Source: Escherichia coli
GTDB taxonomy: Bacteria > Pseudomonadota > Gammaproteobacteria > Enterobacterales > Enterobacteriaceae
Reading direction: 5' to 3' (one strand)
DNA: 64,000 bases
NCBI RefSeq assembly: GCF_009931435.1
Contig: NZ_CP043414.1
Made by a program: the position numbers. How positions within the stretch are numbered: position 1 is the stretch's first letter; each line of letters opens with the position of its first letter. This document shows, one piece after another, positions 42,501 to 45,500 of the stretch.

Positions 42501-45500
42501 TTGAAAGTGTCACTGGCGGCACTTACTGCGCCGTTTTCTTCCGCGTTACGTCAGGGATTACAGGCAAGTGAAACTGTGCTGTTGCGCTACAACTGGCCGG
42601 GAAATATTCGTGAACTGCGCAATATGATGGAACGACTGGCGCTATTTTTAAGTGTGGAACCGACGCCGGATTTAACGCCGCAATTTTTGCAGTTGCTACT
42701 GCCGGAACTGGCGCGCGAGTCGGCGGAAACTCCCGGTCCATGCTTACTGACGCCACAACAGGCACTGGAGAAATTTAATGGCGATAAAACAGCCGCGGCG
42801 AATTATTTAGGTATCAGCCGAACGACATTCTGGCGGCGGCTGAAAAACTGAAATGCCGAATCCAGCGCGAACGCCTTATCCGGCATAAATTTCAATAGAT
42901 GATCACCGATAAACTTACGCATCGGGCATGTTTACATGGGGTGCAGAATTATTTCTTCTTATAAATATTTGCCGTGCCGTGGATCTTATTGTCAGTTTGA
43001 CCAGAGGTCAGCACCAACACATCTGCCCCTTTTTCATCCGCTTTTTTGATCAGATCTTCTTTCGCATCTGCAGTCGACATTTCATTACTGGTTGAAATAT
43101 CACCTATTTTTTCATATTGCGATGCAACTTTTTCAAATTCTGCTTTGGTCATTAATTCTGCGGCATAAACGTTGGTAACGGCAAACGCTAACGCACCGAT
43201 TAACATTTTAGAGATTATTTTCATATTACGGCTCCAGAGTTGTTATCAAACTATCACCCACCCATATTATTGGGTTGATTAATAATTAGTTCAGTCAGGG
43301 CATAAACGCCAGTAACCGGAAATAAGACACTTTGTGATCTCTCTCGCATCCGATTACTTTTTGTAGAAATATGATGAAGTTACTTCACTTATTTATGGAT
43401 GAAATCACATGGATCCCTTGCACGCCGTTTACCTGACCGTAGGACTGTTCGTGATGACTTTTTTTAATCCGGGAGCCAATCTTTTTGTGGTGGTACAAAC
43501 CAGCCTGGCTTCCGGTCGACGCGCAGGAGTGCTGACCGGGTTGGGCGTGGCACTGGGCGATGCGTTTTATTCCGGGTTGGGTTTGTATGGTCTTGCGACA
43601 CTCATTACGCAGTGTGAGGAGATTTTTTCGCTTATTAGAATCGTCGGCGGCGCTTATCTCTTATGGTTTGCGTGGTGCAGCATGCGCCGCCAGTCAACAC
43701 CGCAAATAAGCACACTACAACAACCGATTAGCGCCCCCTGGTATGTCTTTTTTCGCCGTGGATTAATTACCGATCTCTCTAATCCACAGACCGTTTTATT
43801 TTTTATCAGTATTTTCTCAGTAACGTTAAATGCTGAAACACCAACTTGGGCACGTTTAATGGCCTGGGCGGGAATTGTGTTCGCATCAATTATCTGGCGA
43901 GTCTTTCTTAGTCAGGCGTTTTCTTTGCCCGCTGTGCGTCGTGCTTATGGGCGTATGCAACGCGTTGCCAGTCGGGTTATTGGTGCAATTATTGGTGTAT
44001 TCGCGCTACGCCTGATTTACGAAGGAGTAACGCAGCGGTGAGCAGATAATTTACTCTCTACGTAATCAACCTGATTTGCCGAATCCCGCTCATCGGCGAT
44101 GATACCCCCCGTAATGCGTGGTCCTTATTTCCGATAAGTTTACTTGAGTCTTTAGCTTCCCATTTCAGCCCACTCTCCCCTGTGTGGGCTTTTTTCATTT
44201 GTCTGCTTCAGTGAGTAGCTGGCAATGCTCCATCCACTCTGCAAGGATGATAATAAGAGGATCTGATTCAGAAGAGTTTTGAAAAATTGGACCGCCATCG
44301 AGGCCTCGAACCCCGTACCATACAACAATCCTGGTTGTCGTCTGCTCTTCCTGATGAGCTAATGGCGGTTTGTGATATGAGCCTTACAGCATATTGTCTG
44401 TCAGGCTTGAGTGCGATGCGTAAGATACAGAAAAGACCCCACACAAACATGATGGAATTATGATTTTTTTCATATGAATGTCAACCAACACATTCATAAA
44501 ACACTCGCACAAGTTCACTTTTTAAGCAACATGACGCCGATCACAACAAAATATCGGCGAAAAAGGAGGGTAAATGCCATTTGACGTAGAGATAAGCAGA
44601 TGAAATGATTACCCGCTTTGCGATTCACTCTCTGATGGAATAAGAAATTGGAGATGGAAAAGTTTCTAAACTAAAGAGTGTAGCGTATTTTAACGTGCTT
44701 ATTTACAGGATAATATTTGTCACCTAATTCCTGCACTCTATTAGATACCCATTGATTTAATCGTGCATCATCTCTGTATGTTTTTACGTTCAGAACGGAG
44801 AGCAATAACATCACTAGCGATTCAGGAAAAACAGGGTAAATATTTTTTAAGTGCAATAATAATTCATACGCAAGCGCCTGCTTAATAGGTGCGTCTGCGT
44901 CCGGAATGCGCGACATTTCGCGAAGCCATTTTTCTACATGCTCACATTCTTTCCCTTCACGGAAAAGTCTCAACAAAGGCATATGGTGCTCAAGAAGAAT
45001 GCATTTGCAATCTGTTCGTACTGAATCGATAAACTGCACTAATTTCTTAAGTCCGGTGAAGCGTCCGGCATGGATATTCTCTTTAATATCAAGAAACACG
45101 TCATCCTGATCATATACCCAAACGGTCCCTTTTTGATTTTCAAGTATCCGAAAAACAAACTTAATCGGGTAATCAGGGTAATCCACCCAGTCATAAACTC
45201 CAGGGAAATCATTAAACTGCACATTTATGGTAAGCGCATTGTCGGCTGCCCACTCGCAATCTCGTACGGCAGCCATGAGATAAATGAGTTTATCATCATC
45301 GACTAAATCATCACGACAATCATAAGGATAATCATAGTATTGTTTAATCAAAACCTTGAATATATCGACACAAGAAACCAGTGTACTTCTGATATCTTCA
45401 GGTAACTGATTGTTTTTAAACGTATTGTGTACGCTTTGTTTCGTATATAGCAACAAATTATTGTGCGGCGCTTTTAATGGTATCATTGCGATCTCTCTTA

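What the first reader, a model, noticed from the sequence alone, without database searches (positions are those of the whole stretch)
44288..44368. tRNA-like cloverleaf on the minus strand in the yahN-yahL spacer
An 81-nt stretch folds on paper into a near-canonical tRNA frame: perfect 7-bp acceptor stem, U8/A9, D-arm with A14, G18G19 and A21 in place, T-arm with a TTCGAGG loop (T54-Psi55-C56-R57-A58 pattern), a discriminator base and a genomically encoded CCA. The anticodon region is aberrant: 5 nt between D-stem and anticodon stem, and loop caggatt without U33 or a purine at 37. This is where K-12 annotates the small gene yahM, which has no intact ORF of 60 aa or more here. Candidates are a decayed tRNA gene, a tRNA-like regulatory RNA, or the scar of a tRNA-targeting integrative element.
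Basis: seen in the sequence. Interest (0 to 1): 0.6.

Follow-up and report, generated by a model that had tools for sequence, protein, structure and literature searches.

The report
Hidden tRNA-like gene under yahM
The stretch is a real, separately transcribed, tRNA-shaped RNA gene of prophage origin that cannot read codons, has stayed letter-perfect across Escherichia species, and is mislabelled in E. coli as part of the small "protein" gene yahM.

Summary
The cloverleaf at 44288-44368 (minus strand) is real. ARAGORN calls exactly these coordinates, but Rfam's tRNA model finds nothing because the anticodon arm is off-specification.

It is not a chance fold. It is a homologue of argN, the second gene of the ileZ-argN-argO tRNA array of lambdoid and Shiga-toxin phages. 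It belongs to a scaffold family spread through Enterobacterales prophages and chromosomes:
- The acceptor, D and T arms are conserved and covary.
- The anticodon arm is hypervariable: 93 of 98 distinct members have non-canonical geometry.
- A covariance model built without any Escherichia sequence scores the window element at 72.7 bits (E = 4e-17). Ordinary tRNAs score 48 bits or less.

In Escherichia the element has its own near-consensus sigma-70 promoter.
- All 81 nt are invariant in 10 species-level genomes. The leader has 34 of 88 variable columns, and neighbouring yahN third codon positions are only 62-68% identical in the six most distant.
- The 81-mer occurs in 5168 of 5426 complete E. 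coli genomes.
- The yahM ORF starts inside the 3' acceptor strand and is not conserved.

Best reading: a domesticated, non-decoding tRNA mimic. Its molecular partner is unknown. A decoy for tRNA-cleaving nucleases is the most interesting reading not excluded.

The parts
44479..44484 (-). -35 hexamer TTGACA of the element's promoter
   Evidence: Promoter scan: TTGACA-16-CATAAT, 11 of 12 matches. The promoter block 44457-44490 has 8 of 34 variable columns in 10 Escherichia genomes, against 49 of 60 just upstream.
44457..44462 (-). -10 hexamer CATAAT. The transcription start is inferred near 44450.
   Evidence: A yahM promoter and start site were confirmed by reporter assays, with IHF as repressor (bioRxiv 10.1101/2025.05.13.653802). 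That paper gives no coordinates, so equating its promoter with this one is an inference.
44369..44450 (-). 5' leader of about 82 nt with two predicted hairpins, presumed to be removed by RNase P
   Evidence: Fold of 44270-44452: two leader hairpins, with the cloverleaf as a separate domain. The leader is only moderately conserved, 34 of 88 variable columns. The 60-aa ORF that starts here is broken in other species.
44288..44368 (-). tRNA-like RNA gene, 81 nt. Acceptor 44368-44362 with 44298-44292. D arm 44359-44344. Off-specification anticodon arm 44341-44322 (7-bp helix, loop CCAGGA; or 5-bp stem with loop CAGGATT). Variable region 44321-44316. T arm 44315-44299. Discriminator U 44291. CCA 44290-44288.
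   Evidence: ARAGORN. Fold. Family model R1 72.7 bits. 0 of 81 variable columns in 10 Escherichia genomes. 100% identical in 4821 E. coli records.
44278..44287 (-). Conserved A/U-rich 3' trailer (AATTTTTCAA), a likely 3' processing site. Homology with distant Escherichia species ends here.
   Evidence: Alignment of Escherichia loci. BLAST matches stop at query position 242, about 9 nt after CCA. Solitary copies in other genera also continue with AATTT after CCA. The processing role is inferred.
44152..44298 (-). Remnant of the annotated yahM reading frame. Its ATG lies in the 3' acceptor strand. It is frameshifted here relative to K-12.
   Evidence: There are indels of 4, 7 and 2 nt against K-12. 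PGAP marks it 'frameshifted' in the near-identical strain Z0117EC0005. No Pfam or NCBIfam family matches.
44147..44197 (+). Terminator hairpin of the convergent gene yahN (GCCCAC...GTGGGC followed by TTTTTT on the + strand). It lies inside the yahM frame.
   Evidence: The sequence. The only Rfam signal here is a terminator-like partial match, E = 0.15, far below threshold.

Best explanation
This is a functional, non-decoding tRNA-like RNA gene (a 'pseudo-tRNA'). It derives from the second slot (argN) of the tRNA arrays of temperate enterobacterial phages. An ancestor of Escherichia domesticated it between yahK and yahN.

Shown:
- It shares the argN scaffold. The acceptor, D and T arms keep every tRNA tertiary-contact nucleotide, and CCA is encoded.
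- Its anticodon arm does not meet tRNA specification: no 5-bp stem plus 7-nt Y-U-NNN-R-N loop.
- It has its own near-consensus sigma-70 promoter.
- All 81 nt are under strong purifying selection, while the leader, the trailer and both overlapping ORFs are not.

Inferred:
- The primary transcript starts near 44450.
- RNase P removes the leader of about 82 nt at C1.
- An endonucleolytic cut in the AAUUU trailer plus exonucleolytic trimming exposes the encoded CCA.
- The T loop is modified as in tRNAs.
- The result is a stable L-shaped 81-nt RNA.

Because it lacks a usable anticodon loop, it most likely acts as a tRNA mimic. It would occupy or titrate a protein that recognises tRNA shape, with the lineage-specific anticodon hairpin as the specificity element. 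The partner is not identified. Given the phage-array context, tRNA-cleaving toxins or defence nucleases are the leading candidates. The 'yahM protein' is most likely an annotation artefact overlapping this RNA gene.
For: Homology:
- 86% identity to the 81-nt 'tRNA-OTHER' between tRNA-Ile and tRNA-Arg on phage-like plasmid pHX138.261ft_1.
- 84% to the unannotated gap between ileZ and argO of Stx2e phage phiP27.
- 76% to canonical argN (tRNA-Arg UCG) of Stx2a phages.

Family:
- 69 genome hits, all Enterobacterales apart from two contigs of an assembly labelled Chryseobacterium (probable contamination) and one unclassified MAG.
- At least 100 viral contigs, where it is gene 2 of the array Met/Ile(cat)-X-Thr(tgt)-Gly(tcc) or -Arg(tct).
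- Model R1, trained without Escherichia sequences: window element 72.7 bits, family members 56-105 bits, ordinary tRNAs 48 bits or less.
- Structure counts on 90 members: 98.4% of cells paired, against 27-51% when partners are slid. Acceptor pair 7 is C-G in 49 and U-A in 41, with no mismatch. All five anticodon-stem pairs covary.
- 93 of 98 distinct members have a non-canonical anticodon arm. In the 74-nt class, the only columns without a majority base are two loop positions, and the columns next to them also vary.

Selection in Escherichia:
- 0 of 81 variable columns in 10 genomes, against 34 of 88 in the leader and 73 of 81 downstream.
- Third-position identity of adjacent yahN is 62-68% in the six most distant genomes.
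- Present in 5168 of 5426 complete E. coli genomes, and 4821 records are 100% identical.
- The one variant examined, T68C, turns a G.U pair of the T stem into G-C.

Not coding:
- The yahM-frame ORF and the leader ORF stop after 3-31 codons in other Escherichia species, apart from a 59-codon leader ORF in one genome, L015.
- K-12 against G004: 7 codon changes, all non-synonymous. Strain 148 has a stop at codon 12.
- No protein family matches.

Stand-alone gene design elsewhere: solitary copies in Citrobacter and a second Escherichia copy have a TTGCA-N17-TATTAT promoter, a leader, and a Rho-independent terminator right after CCA. Copies in Dryocola, Pluralibacter, Buttiauxella and Klebsiella share the -10 motif and leader. 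Those examined lie between housekeeping genes.

Expression:
- Promoter scan 11 of 12.
- Promoter and start site confirmed, IHF repressor.
- 'yahM' recovered as a differentially expressed species in a small-RNA-enriched library (bioRxiv 10.1101/2019.12.16.878389).
- Convergent transcription overlap with yahN (PMC12288877).
- Induced on adherence to epithelial cells in STEC (PMC7649339).
Against: - No direct evidence was found for a mature 81-nt species, for RNase P processing, for modification or for any binding partner.
- The public tRNA covariance model rejects the element, so its tRNA-like three-dimensional shape is inferred from conserved nucleotides only.
- The gene is dispensable. 258 of 5426 E. 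coli genomes lack it, and one strain carries an IS1 inside it.
- The discriminator base varies across the family (U, A, C, G), which argues against one shared aminoacylation identity and leaves the mode of action open.
- Some phage copies (phiP27, mEp460, L020) do show decay in the T arm, so not every family member need be functional.
- Most E. coli genomes keep an intact 81-codon yahM ORF, which PGAP annotates.
Confidence: 0.7

Rival explanations
1. It is a genuine amino-acid-accepting tRNA that decodes in an unusual way, with a non-standard anticodon loop (6 nt in most phage copies, 7 nt with A33 and U37 here). Examples would be frameshifting, suppression or recoding of particular codons. 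The variable 'anticodon' would set the codon read.
For: - The whole body is tRNA-perfect with an encoded CCA.
- In the 74-nt class the loop reads like a canonical loop lacking U33 (C-NNN-R-N). The variable triplets resemble real anticodons, including UCG as in argN and stop-reading UCA and UUA.
- ARAGORN's two-base and four-base anticodon calls.
- It sits among functional tRNAs in phage arrays.
Against: - U33 and a purine at 37 are near-universal requirements for an anticodon loop (established tRNA knowledge), and both are missing here.
- Loop length ranges from 3 to more than 10 nt, and stem length varies across the family.
- The discriminator varies.
- The Rfam tRNA model gives no hit at E <= 10.
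- The Escherichia copy's anticodon arm also folds as a 7-bp helix with a 6-nt loop.
Confidence: 0.1
2. It is a cis-acting 5' element of a real yahM mRNA. A tRNA-like structure would hide the yahM ribosome-binding site (GAGG in the T arm) and start codon (in the acceptor strand), and would control translation or stability of a small protein, for example through RNase P cleavage.
For: - The yahM ATG and a GAGG five nt upstream lie inside the T arm and acceptor strand.
- Most E. coli genomes keep an intact 81-codon ORF annotated as YahM.
- The promoter drives both.
Against: - Homology between Escherichia species ends about 9 nt after CCA, and the ORF stops after 7-31 codons in six species-level genomes.
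- The ORF is frameshifted in the window lineage and in Shigella flexneri, and stopped in strain 148.
- All substitutions between K-12 and G004 are non-synonymous.
- The ORF runs through the yahN terminator hairpin.
- Relatives in other genera are followed directly by a terminator or by another tRNA, not by an ORF.
Confidence: 0.1
3. It is a neutral relic: a dead prophage tRNA gene left behind in the chromosome, identical among strains only because they are closely related.
For: - It is clearly of prophage ancestry.
- Some phage copies are visibly decaying.
- The gene is dispensable.
- The anticodon arm carries insertions relative to the 74-nt class.
Against: - 0 of 81 variable positions in 10 species-level Escherichia genomes whose adjacent yahN third positions are 32-38% diverged in the six most distant, and whose leader 1 nt upstream is 15-22% diverged in those genomes.
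- Under the third-position rate, the chance of 81 unchanged sites in a single distant genome is about 0.65^81, below 1e-15 (my arithmetic).
- A conserved near-consensus promoter.
- The polymorphism seen preserves structure.
Confidence: 0.07
4. It is an attachment-site scar, a tRNA fragment duplicated by an integrase-bearing element that targeted a tRNA gene.
For: tRNA genes are common integration targets (established knowledge). Related scaffold genes are carried by prophages.
Against: - It is a full-length cloverleaf, not a 3' or 5' fragment.
- No integrase or phage gene adjoins it. The neighbours are yahK, yahL, yahN, yahO and prpR.
- No identical intact parent tRNA exists in the nearest genome. 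The only other relative there is a decayed prophage array copy at 78% identity.
- The one interrupted copy seen is an IS1 insertion, not an integrase event.
Confidence: 0.02

Closest known systems
argN (tRNA-Arg, anticodon UCG) of the ileZ-argN-argO array of Shiga-toxin-converting and other lambdoid phages
   Same: - Same scaffold: acceptor stem CCGCCAT/ATGGCGG, discriminator U, encoded CCA, D stem GCTC/GAGC with A14 and G18G19, T arm CGGGG-TTCGAG(T/G)-CCTCG.
- Even the 7-nt spacer upstream is similar.
- argN scores 57-69 bits with the family model.
   Different: - argN has a canonical 5-bp anticodon stem and the loop CTTCGAA, and scores 53.6 bits with Rfam tRNA. The window element has a longer, off-specification arm and no Rfam hit.
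- argN lies in a phage late-region array downstream of Q and upstream of stx or the lysis genes. The window element is solitary, chromosomal and has its own promoter.
'tRNA-OTHER' / 'tRNA-pseudo' / 'tRNA-XXX' entries in the second slot of prophage tRNA arrays (pHX138.261ft_1, phiP27, mEp460, Yersinia phage YeP1, stx2i prophages)
   Same: - Same family and same kind of defect: a tRNA body with a non-canonical anticodon arm.
- Annotation pipelines flag them as undetermined or pseudo.
[quoted passage not shown]
   Different: - Those copies are on mobile elements inside arrays, and some show T-arm decay.
- The window copy is a core-genome, promoter-equipped, invariant gene with its own loop sequence.
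tRNA-Other of Bacillus cereus (pseudo-tRNA with a regulatory, non-translational role; PMC3399842)
   Same: The concept. It is a chromosomal tRNA-like gene that does not function in translation, yet its deletion has phenotypes (abstract seen).
   Different: No sequence relationship was tested or expected. The phylum differs, as does the context (it flanks a pathogenicity island). The resemblance is functional analogy only.
YrlA / bacterial Y RNA-like RNAs and the tRNA-like domain of tmRNA
   Same: RNAs that mimic the acceptor/T-arm part of tRNA and are handled by tRNA-processing enzymes (my knowledge of the field, not tested here).
   Different: No significant Rfam match to YrlA, tmRNA or other tRNA-like families at the element. 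There were only insignificant YrlA matches (E = 4.6-7.8) at phage arrays. Those RNAs have large extra domains. This one is a complete four-arm cloverleaf.
Phage tRNAs that neutralise tRNA-cleaving defence nucleases (T5 tRNA-Lys against PARIS, PMC11464382; phage tRNA-Thr(UGU) against P2-OLD, PMC12445682)
   Same: - The family's phage arrays carry Thr(UGU), the isoacceptor reported to rescue cells from P2-OLD.
- Resistance in that study maps to anticodon-arm changes.
   Different: Those rescuing tRNAs still decode. The present family has lost a canonical anticodon loop, so it could only act as a decoy or inhibitor, for which there is no evidence yet.

Membership tests
Canonical decoding tRNA (Rfam RF00005) | 7-bp acceptor stem, discriminator base, 3' CCA | tested here: met
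   CCGCCAT/ATGGCGG 7 of 7 pairs, U73, encoded CCA
Canonical decoding tRNA (Rfam RF00005) | D and T arms with the conserved tertiary-contact nucleotides (U8, A14, G18G19, A21, T54-T55-C56, purine 57, A58) | tested here: met
   All are present in the sequence. They are conserved across 61-98 family members.
Canonical decoding tRNA (Rfam RF00005) | Anticodon arm: one linker nt, 5-bp stem, 7-nt loop Y32-U33-NNN-R37-N, 4-5-nt variable loop | tested here: not met
   There are 28 nt between the D and T stems instead of 22-23. The arm reads either as a 5-nt linker plus loop CAGGATT (A33, U37) or as a 7-bp helix with a 6-nt loop. It fails the geometry test.
Canonical decoding tRNA (Rfam RF00005) | Covariance-model score at or above the gathering threshold (29 bits) | tested here: not met
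   No RF00005 hit at E <= 10 in 701 nt or in 97 nt. Neighbouring real phage tRNAs score 54-73 bits.
Canonical decoding tRNA (Rfam RF00005) | Aminoacylation and codon reading | not testable with these tools
   Needs charging assays and translation reporters.
Prophage argN-scaffold tRNA-like family ('slot-2 X', defined here) | Scaffold signature CCGCCAY-TA-GCTCA...GGAAGAGC ... GGTTCGAGNCYYCG-RTGGCGG-N-CCA | tested here: met
   The Escherichia 81-mer, identical to the window's, is among the pattern hits. Alignments A3 and A4.
Prophage argN-scaffold tRNA-like family ('slot-2 X', defined here) | Score with family model R1 clearly above that of ordinary tRNAs | tested here: met
   72.7 bits, E = 4e-17. 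The model was trained on 28 sequences of 74 nt, none from Escherichia. Family members score 56-105 bits and other tRNAs 48 bits or less.
Prophage argN-scaffold tRNA-like family ('slot-2 X', defined here) | Non-canonical, lineage-specific anticodon hairpin on a conserved body | tested here: met
   The window loop CAGGAT(T) matches the CAGGAT loop of Enterobacter and Dryocola copies, with one extra T.
Prophage argN-scaffold tRNA-like family ('slot-2 X', defined here) | Position as second gene of a prophage tRNA array | tested here: not met
   It is solitary between yahL/yahK and yahN, with its own promoter. This is also true of the solitary chromosomal copies in Citrobacter, Klebsiella, Scandinavium and Pseudocitrobacter.
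argN proper (tRNA-Arg UCG) | Anticodon UCG in loop CTTCGAA, with the arginine identity element C35 | tested here: not met
   A20 is retained, but there is no C35 or UCG.
Protein-coding gene yahM | Reading frame conserved among orthologous loci, with purifying selection on codons | tested here: not met
   Frameshifted in the window, in Z0117EC0005 and in S. flexneri. Stopped in strain 148. Lost in six other Escherichia species-level genomes. 7 of 7 codon changes are non-synonymous between K-12 and G004.
Protein-coding gene yahM | Membership of a curated protein family | tested here: not met
   No Pfam or NCBIfam match at E <= 0.01 for K-12 YahM or the window ORFs.
Integrase attachment-site tRNA fragment | Partial tRNA copy duplicated from an intact gene at the border of an island that carries an integrase | tested here: not met
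   Full-length cloverleaf. No integrase among the neighbours. No identical parent tRNA in the nearest genome.
tmRNA / YrlA / other Rfam tRNA-like families | Covariance-model match | tested here: not met
   No hits at E <= 10. ARAGORN reports no tmRNA.

The most novel reading that the evidence does not exclude
The scaffold family is a class of phage-borne tRNA decoys. Each would be a tRNA body that presents a deliberately uncleavable or undecodable anticodon hairpin, whose few hypervariable loop nucleotides track the specificity of host or rival-phage tRNA-cleaving nucleases (anticodon nucleases, OLD/PARIS-type Toprim nucleases, colicin or CDI tRNases). Escherichia, Citrobacter, the Klebsiella oxytoca group, Scandinavium and Pseudocitrobacter would each have captured a copy as a stand-alone chromosomal gene, giving the cell standing protection or regulating an endogenous tRNase.
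Probability: 0.2. Interest if true: 0.85.

Novelty: new variant of a known kind. Interest (0 to 1): 0.7.

Why it matters
E. coli K-12 is the best-annotated genome there is, yet this locus is carried as an uncharacterised protein gene (yahM, listed in the 'y-ome'). The evidence says the conserved, selected unit is an RNA gene as constrained as a real tRNA gene. That would do four things:
- Remove a phantom protein from the y-ome.
- Explain 'yahM' signals in transcriptome and small-RNA data.
- Add a new member to the short list of bacterial tRNA mimics.
- Point to a widespread, so far ignored component of prophage tRNA arrays, the 'tRNA-OTHER' or 'pseudo' slot. Its conserved body and hypervariable anticodon loop suggest a role in the current picture of phage tRNAs as counter-defence tools.

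It is directly testable in K-12 with standard genetics.

Tried and rejected
- Rfam at three scales (701 nt, 97 nt, five phage loci) gave no family for the element or its 81-nt phage relatives. Weak hits (Betaproteobacteria_toxic_sRNA, PrrF, STnc320, L31 leader, YrlA) are below threshold and explained by a terminator hairpin, the A/T-rich promoter or the T arm.
- Folding energy alone is not significant (z = -1.88), so I did not rely on it.
- My first alignment with K-12 used the wrong K-12 stretch. It was redone.
- Searching the window's own assembly failed because it is not held. I used the nearest genome, G001, and its relatives instead.
- Synteny outside Escherichia: no yahN or yahK next to relatives in other genera, so there is no shared ancestral locus.
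- An integrase or att-scar origin was rejected. The truncated copy in strain DETEC-S792 is an IS1 insertion.
- A leaderless small hydrophobic peptide from the 60-aa leader ORF was rejected because the ORF is broken in other species.
- The loop-size heuristic based on the outermost 5-bp stem mis-assigned even true argN. A strict geometry test replaced it.
- Literature: no paper in the library links yahM (b0327) to a tRNA or tRNA-like RNA. Searches for argN/ileZ/argO found nothing usable.
- A strict search of deposited phages with a 74-nt member found nothing at E <= 1e-8. Relaxed, it found only argN, 'tRNA-Lys' and 'tRNA-OTHER' scaffold-mates.
- I considered amino-acid identity rules (Ala, Ser, Leu, His, Cys, Gly, Pro, Arg) from memory. 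None fits, and the discriminator varies across the family, so I make no charging claim.
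Full report
OBSERVATION

On the minus strand, 44368 to 44288 reads CCGCCAT-TA-GCTC-ATCAGGAA-GAGC-[28 nt]-CGGGG-TTCGAGG-CCTCG-ATGGCGG-T-CCA.
- ARAGORN reports a single tRNA in the 64-kb window, at exactly these coordinates. It calls it tRNA-Ser(gga), using a 7-nt loop CAGGATT that lacks U33 and a purine at 37.
- The minimum-free-energy fold is a cloverleaf whose third arm is a 7-bp helix with a 6-nt loop. Its energy is only 1.9 sd better than shuffles.
- Rfam finds no tRNA, tmRNA or tRNA-like family at E <= 10, whether 701 nt or only 97 nt are searched.

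So the description is accurate. By the public tRNA model the element is not a tRNA.

SURROUNDINGS

The window carries prpR, yahO, yahN, the spacer, yahL and yahK, as in E. coli K-12 but in the opposite orientation.
- In K-12 W3110, ARAGORN places the same 81-mer at L001:1832-1912, and the annotated yahM CDS is 1902-2147. The yahM start codon is therefore the ATG of the 3' acceptor strand. The element lies almost wholly upstream of the CDS.
- A promoter with 11 of 12 consensus matches (TTGACA-16-CATAAT, 44484-44457) lies about 90 nt upstream.
- The predicted precursor folds into two leader hairpins plus an independent cloverleaf.

WHERE IT COMES FROM

Beyond chromosomal yahM loci, BLAST finds the element in mobile DNA.
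- There is an 81-nt gene annotated 'tRNA-OTHER' between tRNA-Ile and tRNA-Arg on a phage-like plasmid, at 86% identity.
- It matches the unannotated gap between ileZ and argO of Stx2e phage phiP27 (84%), phage mEp460 (82%), and argN of Stx2 phages (76%).
- ARAGORN and Rfam accept argN as a normal tRNA-Arg(UCG) at 53.6 bits. They do not accept the 81-nt variants.
- The alignment shows identical acceptor, D and T arms and a different, longer anticodon arm.

The element is therefore a homologue of the second gene of the lambdoid ileZ-argN-argO array.

THE FAMILY

- A degenerate pattern for the shared body found 69 places in 185,579 species genomes. All are Enterobacterales, apart from two contigs of an assembly labelled Chryseobacterium (probably contamination) and one unclassified MAG. 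The genera are Escherichia including albertii, ruysiae and whittamii, Shigella, Citrobacter, the Klebsiella oxytoca group, Enterobacter, Buttiauxella, Scandinavium, Dryocola, Pseudocitrobacter, Pluralibacter, Cedecea, Kluyvera, Yokenella, Serratia, Rosenbergiella and S. enterica diarizonae.
- The same pattern found at least 100 viral contigs.
- In phages it is gene 2 of an array Met/Ile(cat)-X-Thr(tgt)-Gly(tcc) or -Arg(tct).
- Of 98 distinct sequences, 4 (true argN) have canonical anticodon-arm geometry with Y32-U33-R37. One has the geometry with an off-consensus loop. The other 93 are non-canonical. The search pattern favoured the GGAAGAGC D arm, so this is not an estimate of how common argN is.
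- ARAGORN assigns these scaffold-mates a scatter of 'anticodons', including two- and four-base ones.
- In the 28 aligned 74-nt members, the only columns without a majority base are two loop positions, and the neighbouring loop columns also vary. The 6-nt loop follows C-NNRR-K, which looks like a normal loop without U33.
- A covariance model built from those 28 sequences, none from Escherichia, scores the window element at 72.7 bits (E = 4e-17). That is the only hit in the window. Family members score 56-105 bits and neighbouring genuine tRNAs 48 bits or less.
- On 90 members, 98.4% of pair cells are standard pairs, against 27-51% when partners are slid. Acceptor pair 7 is C-G in 49 and U-A in 41 with no mismatch. 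All five anticodon-stem pairs show double changes.

The body is thus a selected structure. The loop is free to differ between lineages.

SELECTION IN ESCHERICHIA

- Nine of 13 species-level Escherichia genomes carry the unit next to yahN.
- In the window, K-12 and eight of those genomes, variable columns are: the 81 nt, 0 of 81; the leader, 34 of 88; the 81 nt downstream, 73 of 81; the promoter block, 8 of 34; the 60 nt upstream of it, 49 of 60.
- Third codon positions of adjacent yahN are 62-68% identical in the six most distant genomes. Neutral survival of 81 unchanged sites in even one of them has a probability of about 0.65^81, which is below 1e-15.
- Homology stops about 9 nt after CCA in those genomes.
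- Among 5426 complete E. coli genomes, 5168 carry the 81-mer. 4821 records are 100% identical and 348 have one to four differences. The window's leader is 95-99% identical to nearly all of them. Its downstream 81 nt are too diverged for megablast in all but 78.
- The one variant I inspected (strain 148, T68C) changes a G.U pair of the T stem to G-C.
- The gene is dispensable. 258 genomes lack it, and one has an IS1 in the T loop.

NOT A PROTEIN GENE

- Relative to K-12, the window has indels of 4, 7 and 2 nt in the yahM frame. PGAP marks the near-identical strain Z0117EC0005 as frameshifted.
- In six other Escherichia genomes the frame stops after 7-31 codons. The alternative 60-aa leader ORF stops after 3-13 codons in five of them and stays open (59 codons) in one, L015.
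- K-12 and G004 differ by seven codons, all non-synonymous. Strain 148 has a stop at codon 12, and Shigella flexneri is frameshifted.
- The frame runs through the yahN terminator hairpin.
- No Pfam or NCBIfam family matches.
- yahL, also without a family, is absent in three genomes that keep the RNA unit, so it is unrelated.

STAND-ALONE COPIES ELSEWHERE

- Solitary copies in Citrobacter (sedlakii and amalonaticus groups) and a second Escherichia copy share a TTGCA-N17-TATTAT promoter, a leader of about 65 nt, and a Rho-independent terminator directly after CCA. Copies in Dryocola, Pluralibacter, Buttiauxella warmboldiae and Klebsiella share the -10 motif and leader.
- Copies in Pseudocitrobacter and Scandinavium are conserved within the genus together with their flanks.
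- The neighbours are housekeeping genes: thrS, a ttcA-like PP-loop gene, a porin, cytochrome bd oxidase, a nickel transporter, DsbD-like and LysR genes. No phage genes are among them.

This is the design of an independent small-RNA gene. It appears to have been captured several times.

PUBLISHED EXPRESSION DATA

- A massively parallel reporter study confirms a yahM promoter and start site and finds IHF as its repressor (bioRxiv 10.1101/2025.05.13.653802).
- A small-RNA-enriched library lists 'yahM' among differentially expressed small RNAs (bioRxiv 10.1101/2019.12.16.878389).
- yahM-yahN is listed as a convergent transcription overlap (PMC12288877).
- yahM rises 2.5-9 fold in STEC adhering to epithelial cells (PMC7649339).
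- The y-ome review lists yahM as uncharacterised (PMC11551758).
- No paper in the library connects yahM with a tRNA-like RNA.
- The stx2i prophage paper notes 'tRNA-pseudo' in the array without comment (PMC13641118).

MECHANISM

Shown: the ancestry, the structure, the promoter, the selection on the RNA and the lack of selection on the ORFs.

Inferred from established tRNA biology:
- RNase P cleavage at C1.
- 3' maturation to the encoded CCA through the conserved AAUUU trailer.
- T-loop modification and an L-shaped product.
- Inability to decode, because U33, R37 and the loop geometry are missing.

Hypothesis: the RNA acts as a tRNA mimic that binds a tRNA-recognising protein. The lineage-specific hairpin would be the specificity element.

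The phage context makes tRNA-cleaving nucleases the leading candidates. Phage tRNAs are now known to neutralise PARIS (PMC11464382) and P2-OLD. In the P2-OLD case phage tRNA-Thr(UGU) rescues cells and resistance maps to the anticodon arm (PMC12445682). Thr(UGU) is the gene next to X in most arrays. Nothing here tests that link.

RIVALS

The rivals are an unusual decoding tRNA, a cis element of a real yahM mRNA, a neutral relic and an att-site scar. Each is weighed in its own section. The last two conflict and with the full-length, integrase-free anatomy.

COMPARISON AND NOVELTY

The element fails two defining tests of a canonical tRNA: anticodon-arm geometry and the covariance threshold. It should not be filed as one.

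It meets three of four features of the argN-scaffold family defined here. It lacks only the array position, as do the other chromosomal copies.

It works like known pseudo-tRNAs and tRNA mimics (B. cereus tRNA-Other, PMC3399842; YrlA; the tmRNA tRNA-like domain) but is not related to them by any test run here.

I rate it a new variant of a known kind. Pipelines already flag the phage copies as 'OTHER' or 'pseudo'. I did not find three points described anywhere in the library: the core-genome Escherichia gene, its extreme constraint, and the conserved-body, hypervariable-loop pattern.

LIMITS

- No transcript ends, charging state, modifications or partners were seen.
- Genome handles are anonymous, so species names for G002-G013 are not given.
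- The literature library lacks most subscription-journal papers, including the original 933W and phiP27 descriptions.

Noticed in passing
window 44671-45486 (-), yahL: The 271-aa YahL has no Pfam or NCBIfam family. It is missing between yahK and the RNA unit in three Escherichia genomes (L009, L013, L015). It looks like an accessory insertion of unknown origin.
   Followed up: partly
window ~44525 (between yahL and the promoter); A2 columns 149-188: K-12 carries 40 extra nt here relative to the window lineage. The whole spacer upstream of the -35 is about 40-50% diverged among Escherichia genomes, in sharp contrast with the promoter and the RNA.
   Followed up: no
L225:6001-6062 (E. coli DETEC-S792): An IS1 sits inside the tRNA-like gene after nt 62, in the T loop. 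It is a natural knock-out in a clinical-surveillance isolate.
   Followed up: yes
L002:4313-4519, L005:4582-4793, L006:3875-4065: The Rfam sRNA STnc100 (114-158 bits) lies downstream of the prophage tRNA arrays, just after the array in L002 and beyond stx2AB in L005. The arrays may be part of a larger non-coding late-region module.
   Followed up: no
L078:2151-2224 (Pluralibacter gergoviae): This solitary family member lies directly upstream of, and co-oriented with, thrS (threonyl-tRNA synthetase). It may be coincidence or a regulatory link.
   Followed up: no
L226:1501-1576 (prophage PPompW_132418): The gene annotated 'tRNA-Lys' in slot 2 is another off-consensus scaffold-mate. Its loop is CCTTTAA with C33, its D stem is one nt short, and it has no Rfam tRNA hit. 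Such annotations in E. coli prophages should be treated with caution.
   Followed up: yes
L020:1509-1592 (genome G001, nearest to the window): The same genome lineage also holds a prophage array copy of the 81-nt phage variant. It has a G-run expansion in the T arm and an acceptor mismatch, so it is a copy that really is decaying. That contrasts with the invariant chromosomal gene.
   Followed up: partly
L017 and L019 (genome G006, Escherichia): One Escherichia species has two diverged copies at other loci instead of the yahN-linked one. L017 keeps a yahM-type promoter and has five substitutions. L019 has a 6-nt insertion in the loop, a TATTAT-type promoter and its own terminator.
   Followed up: partly
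window, whole: The window's lineage is unusual for E. coli. Only 17 of 5174 records are at least 99% identical over the 621-nt spacer, and most are about 91%. The own assembly is not held.
   Followed up: no
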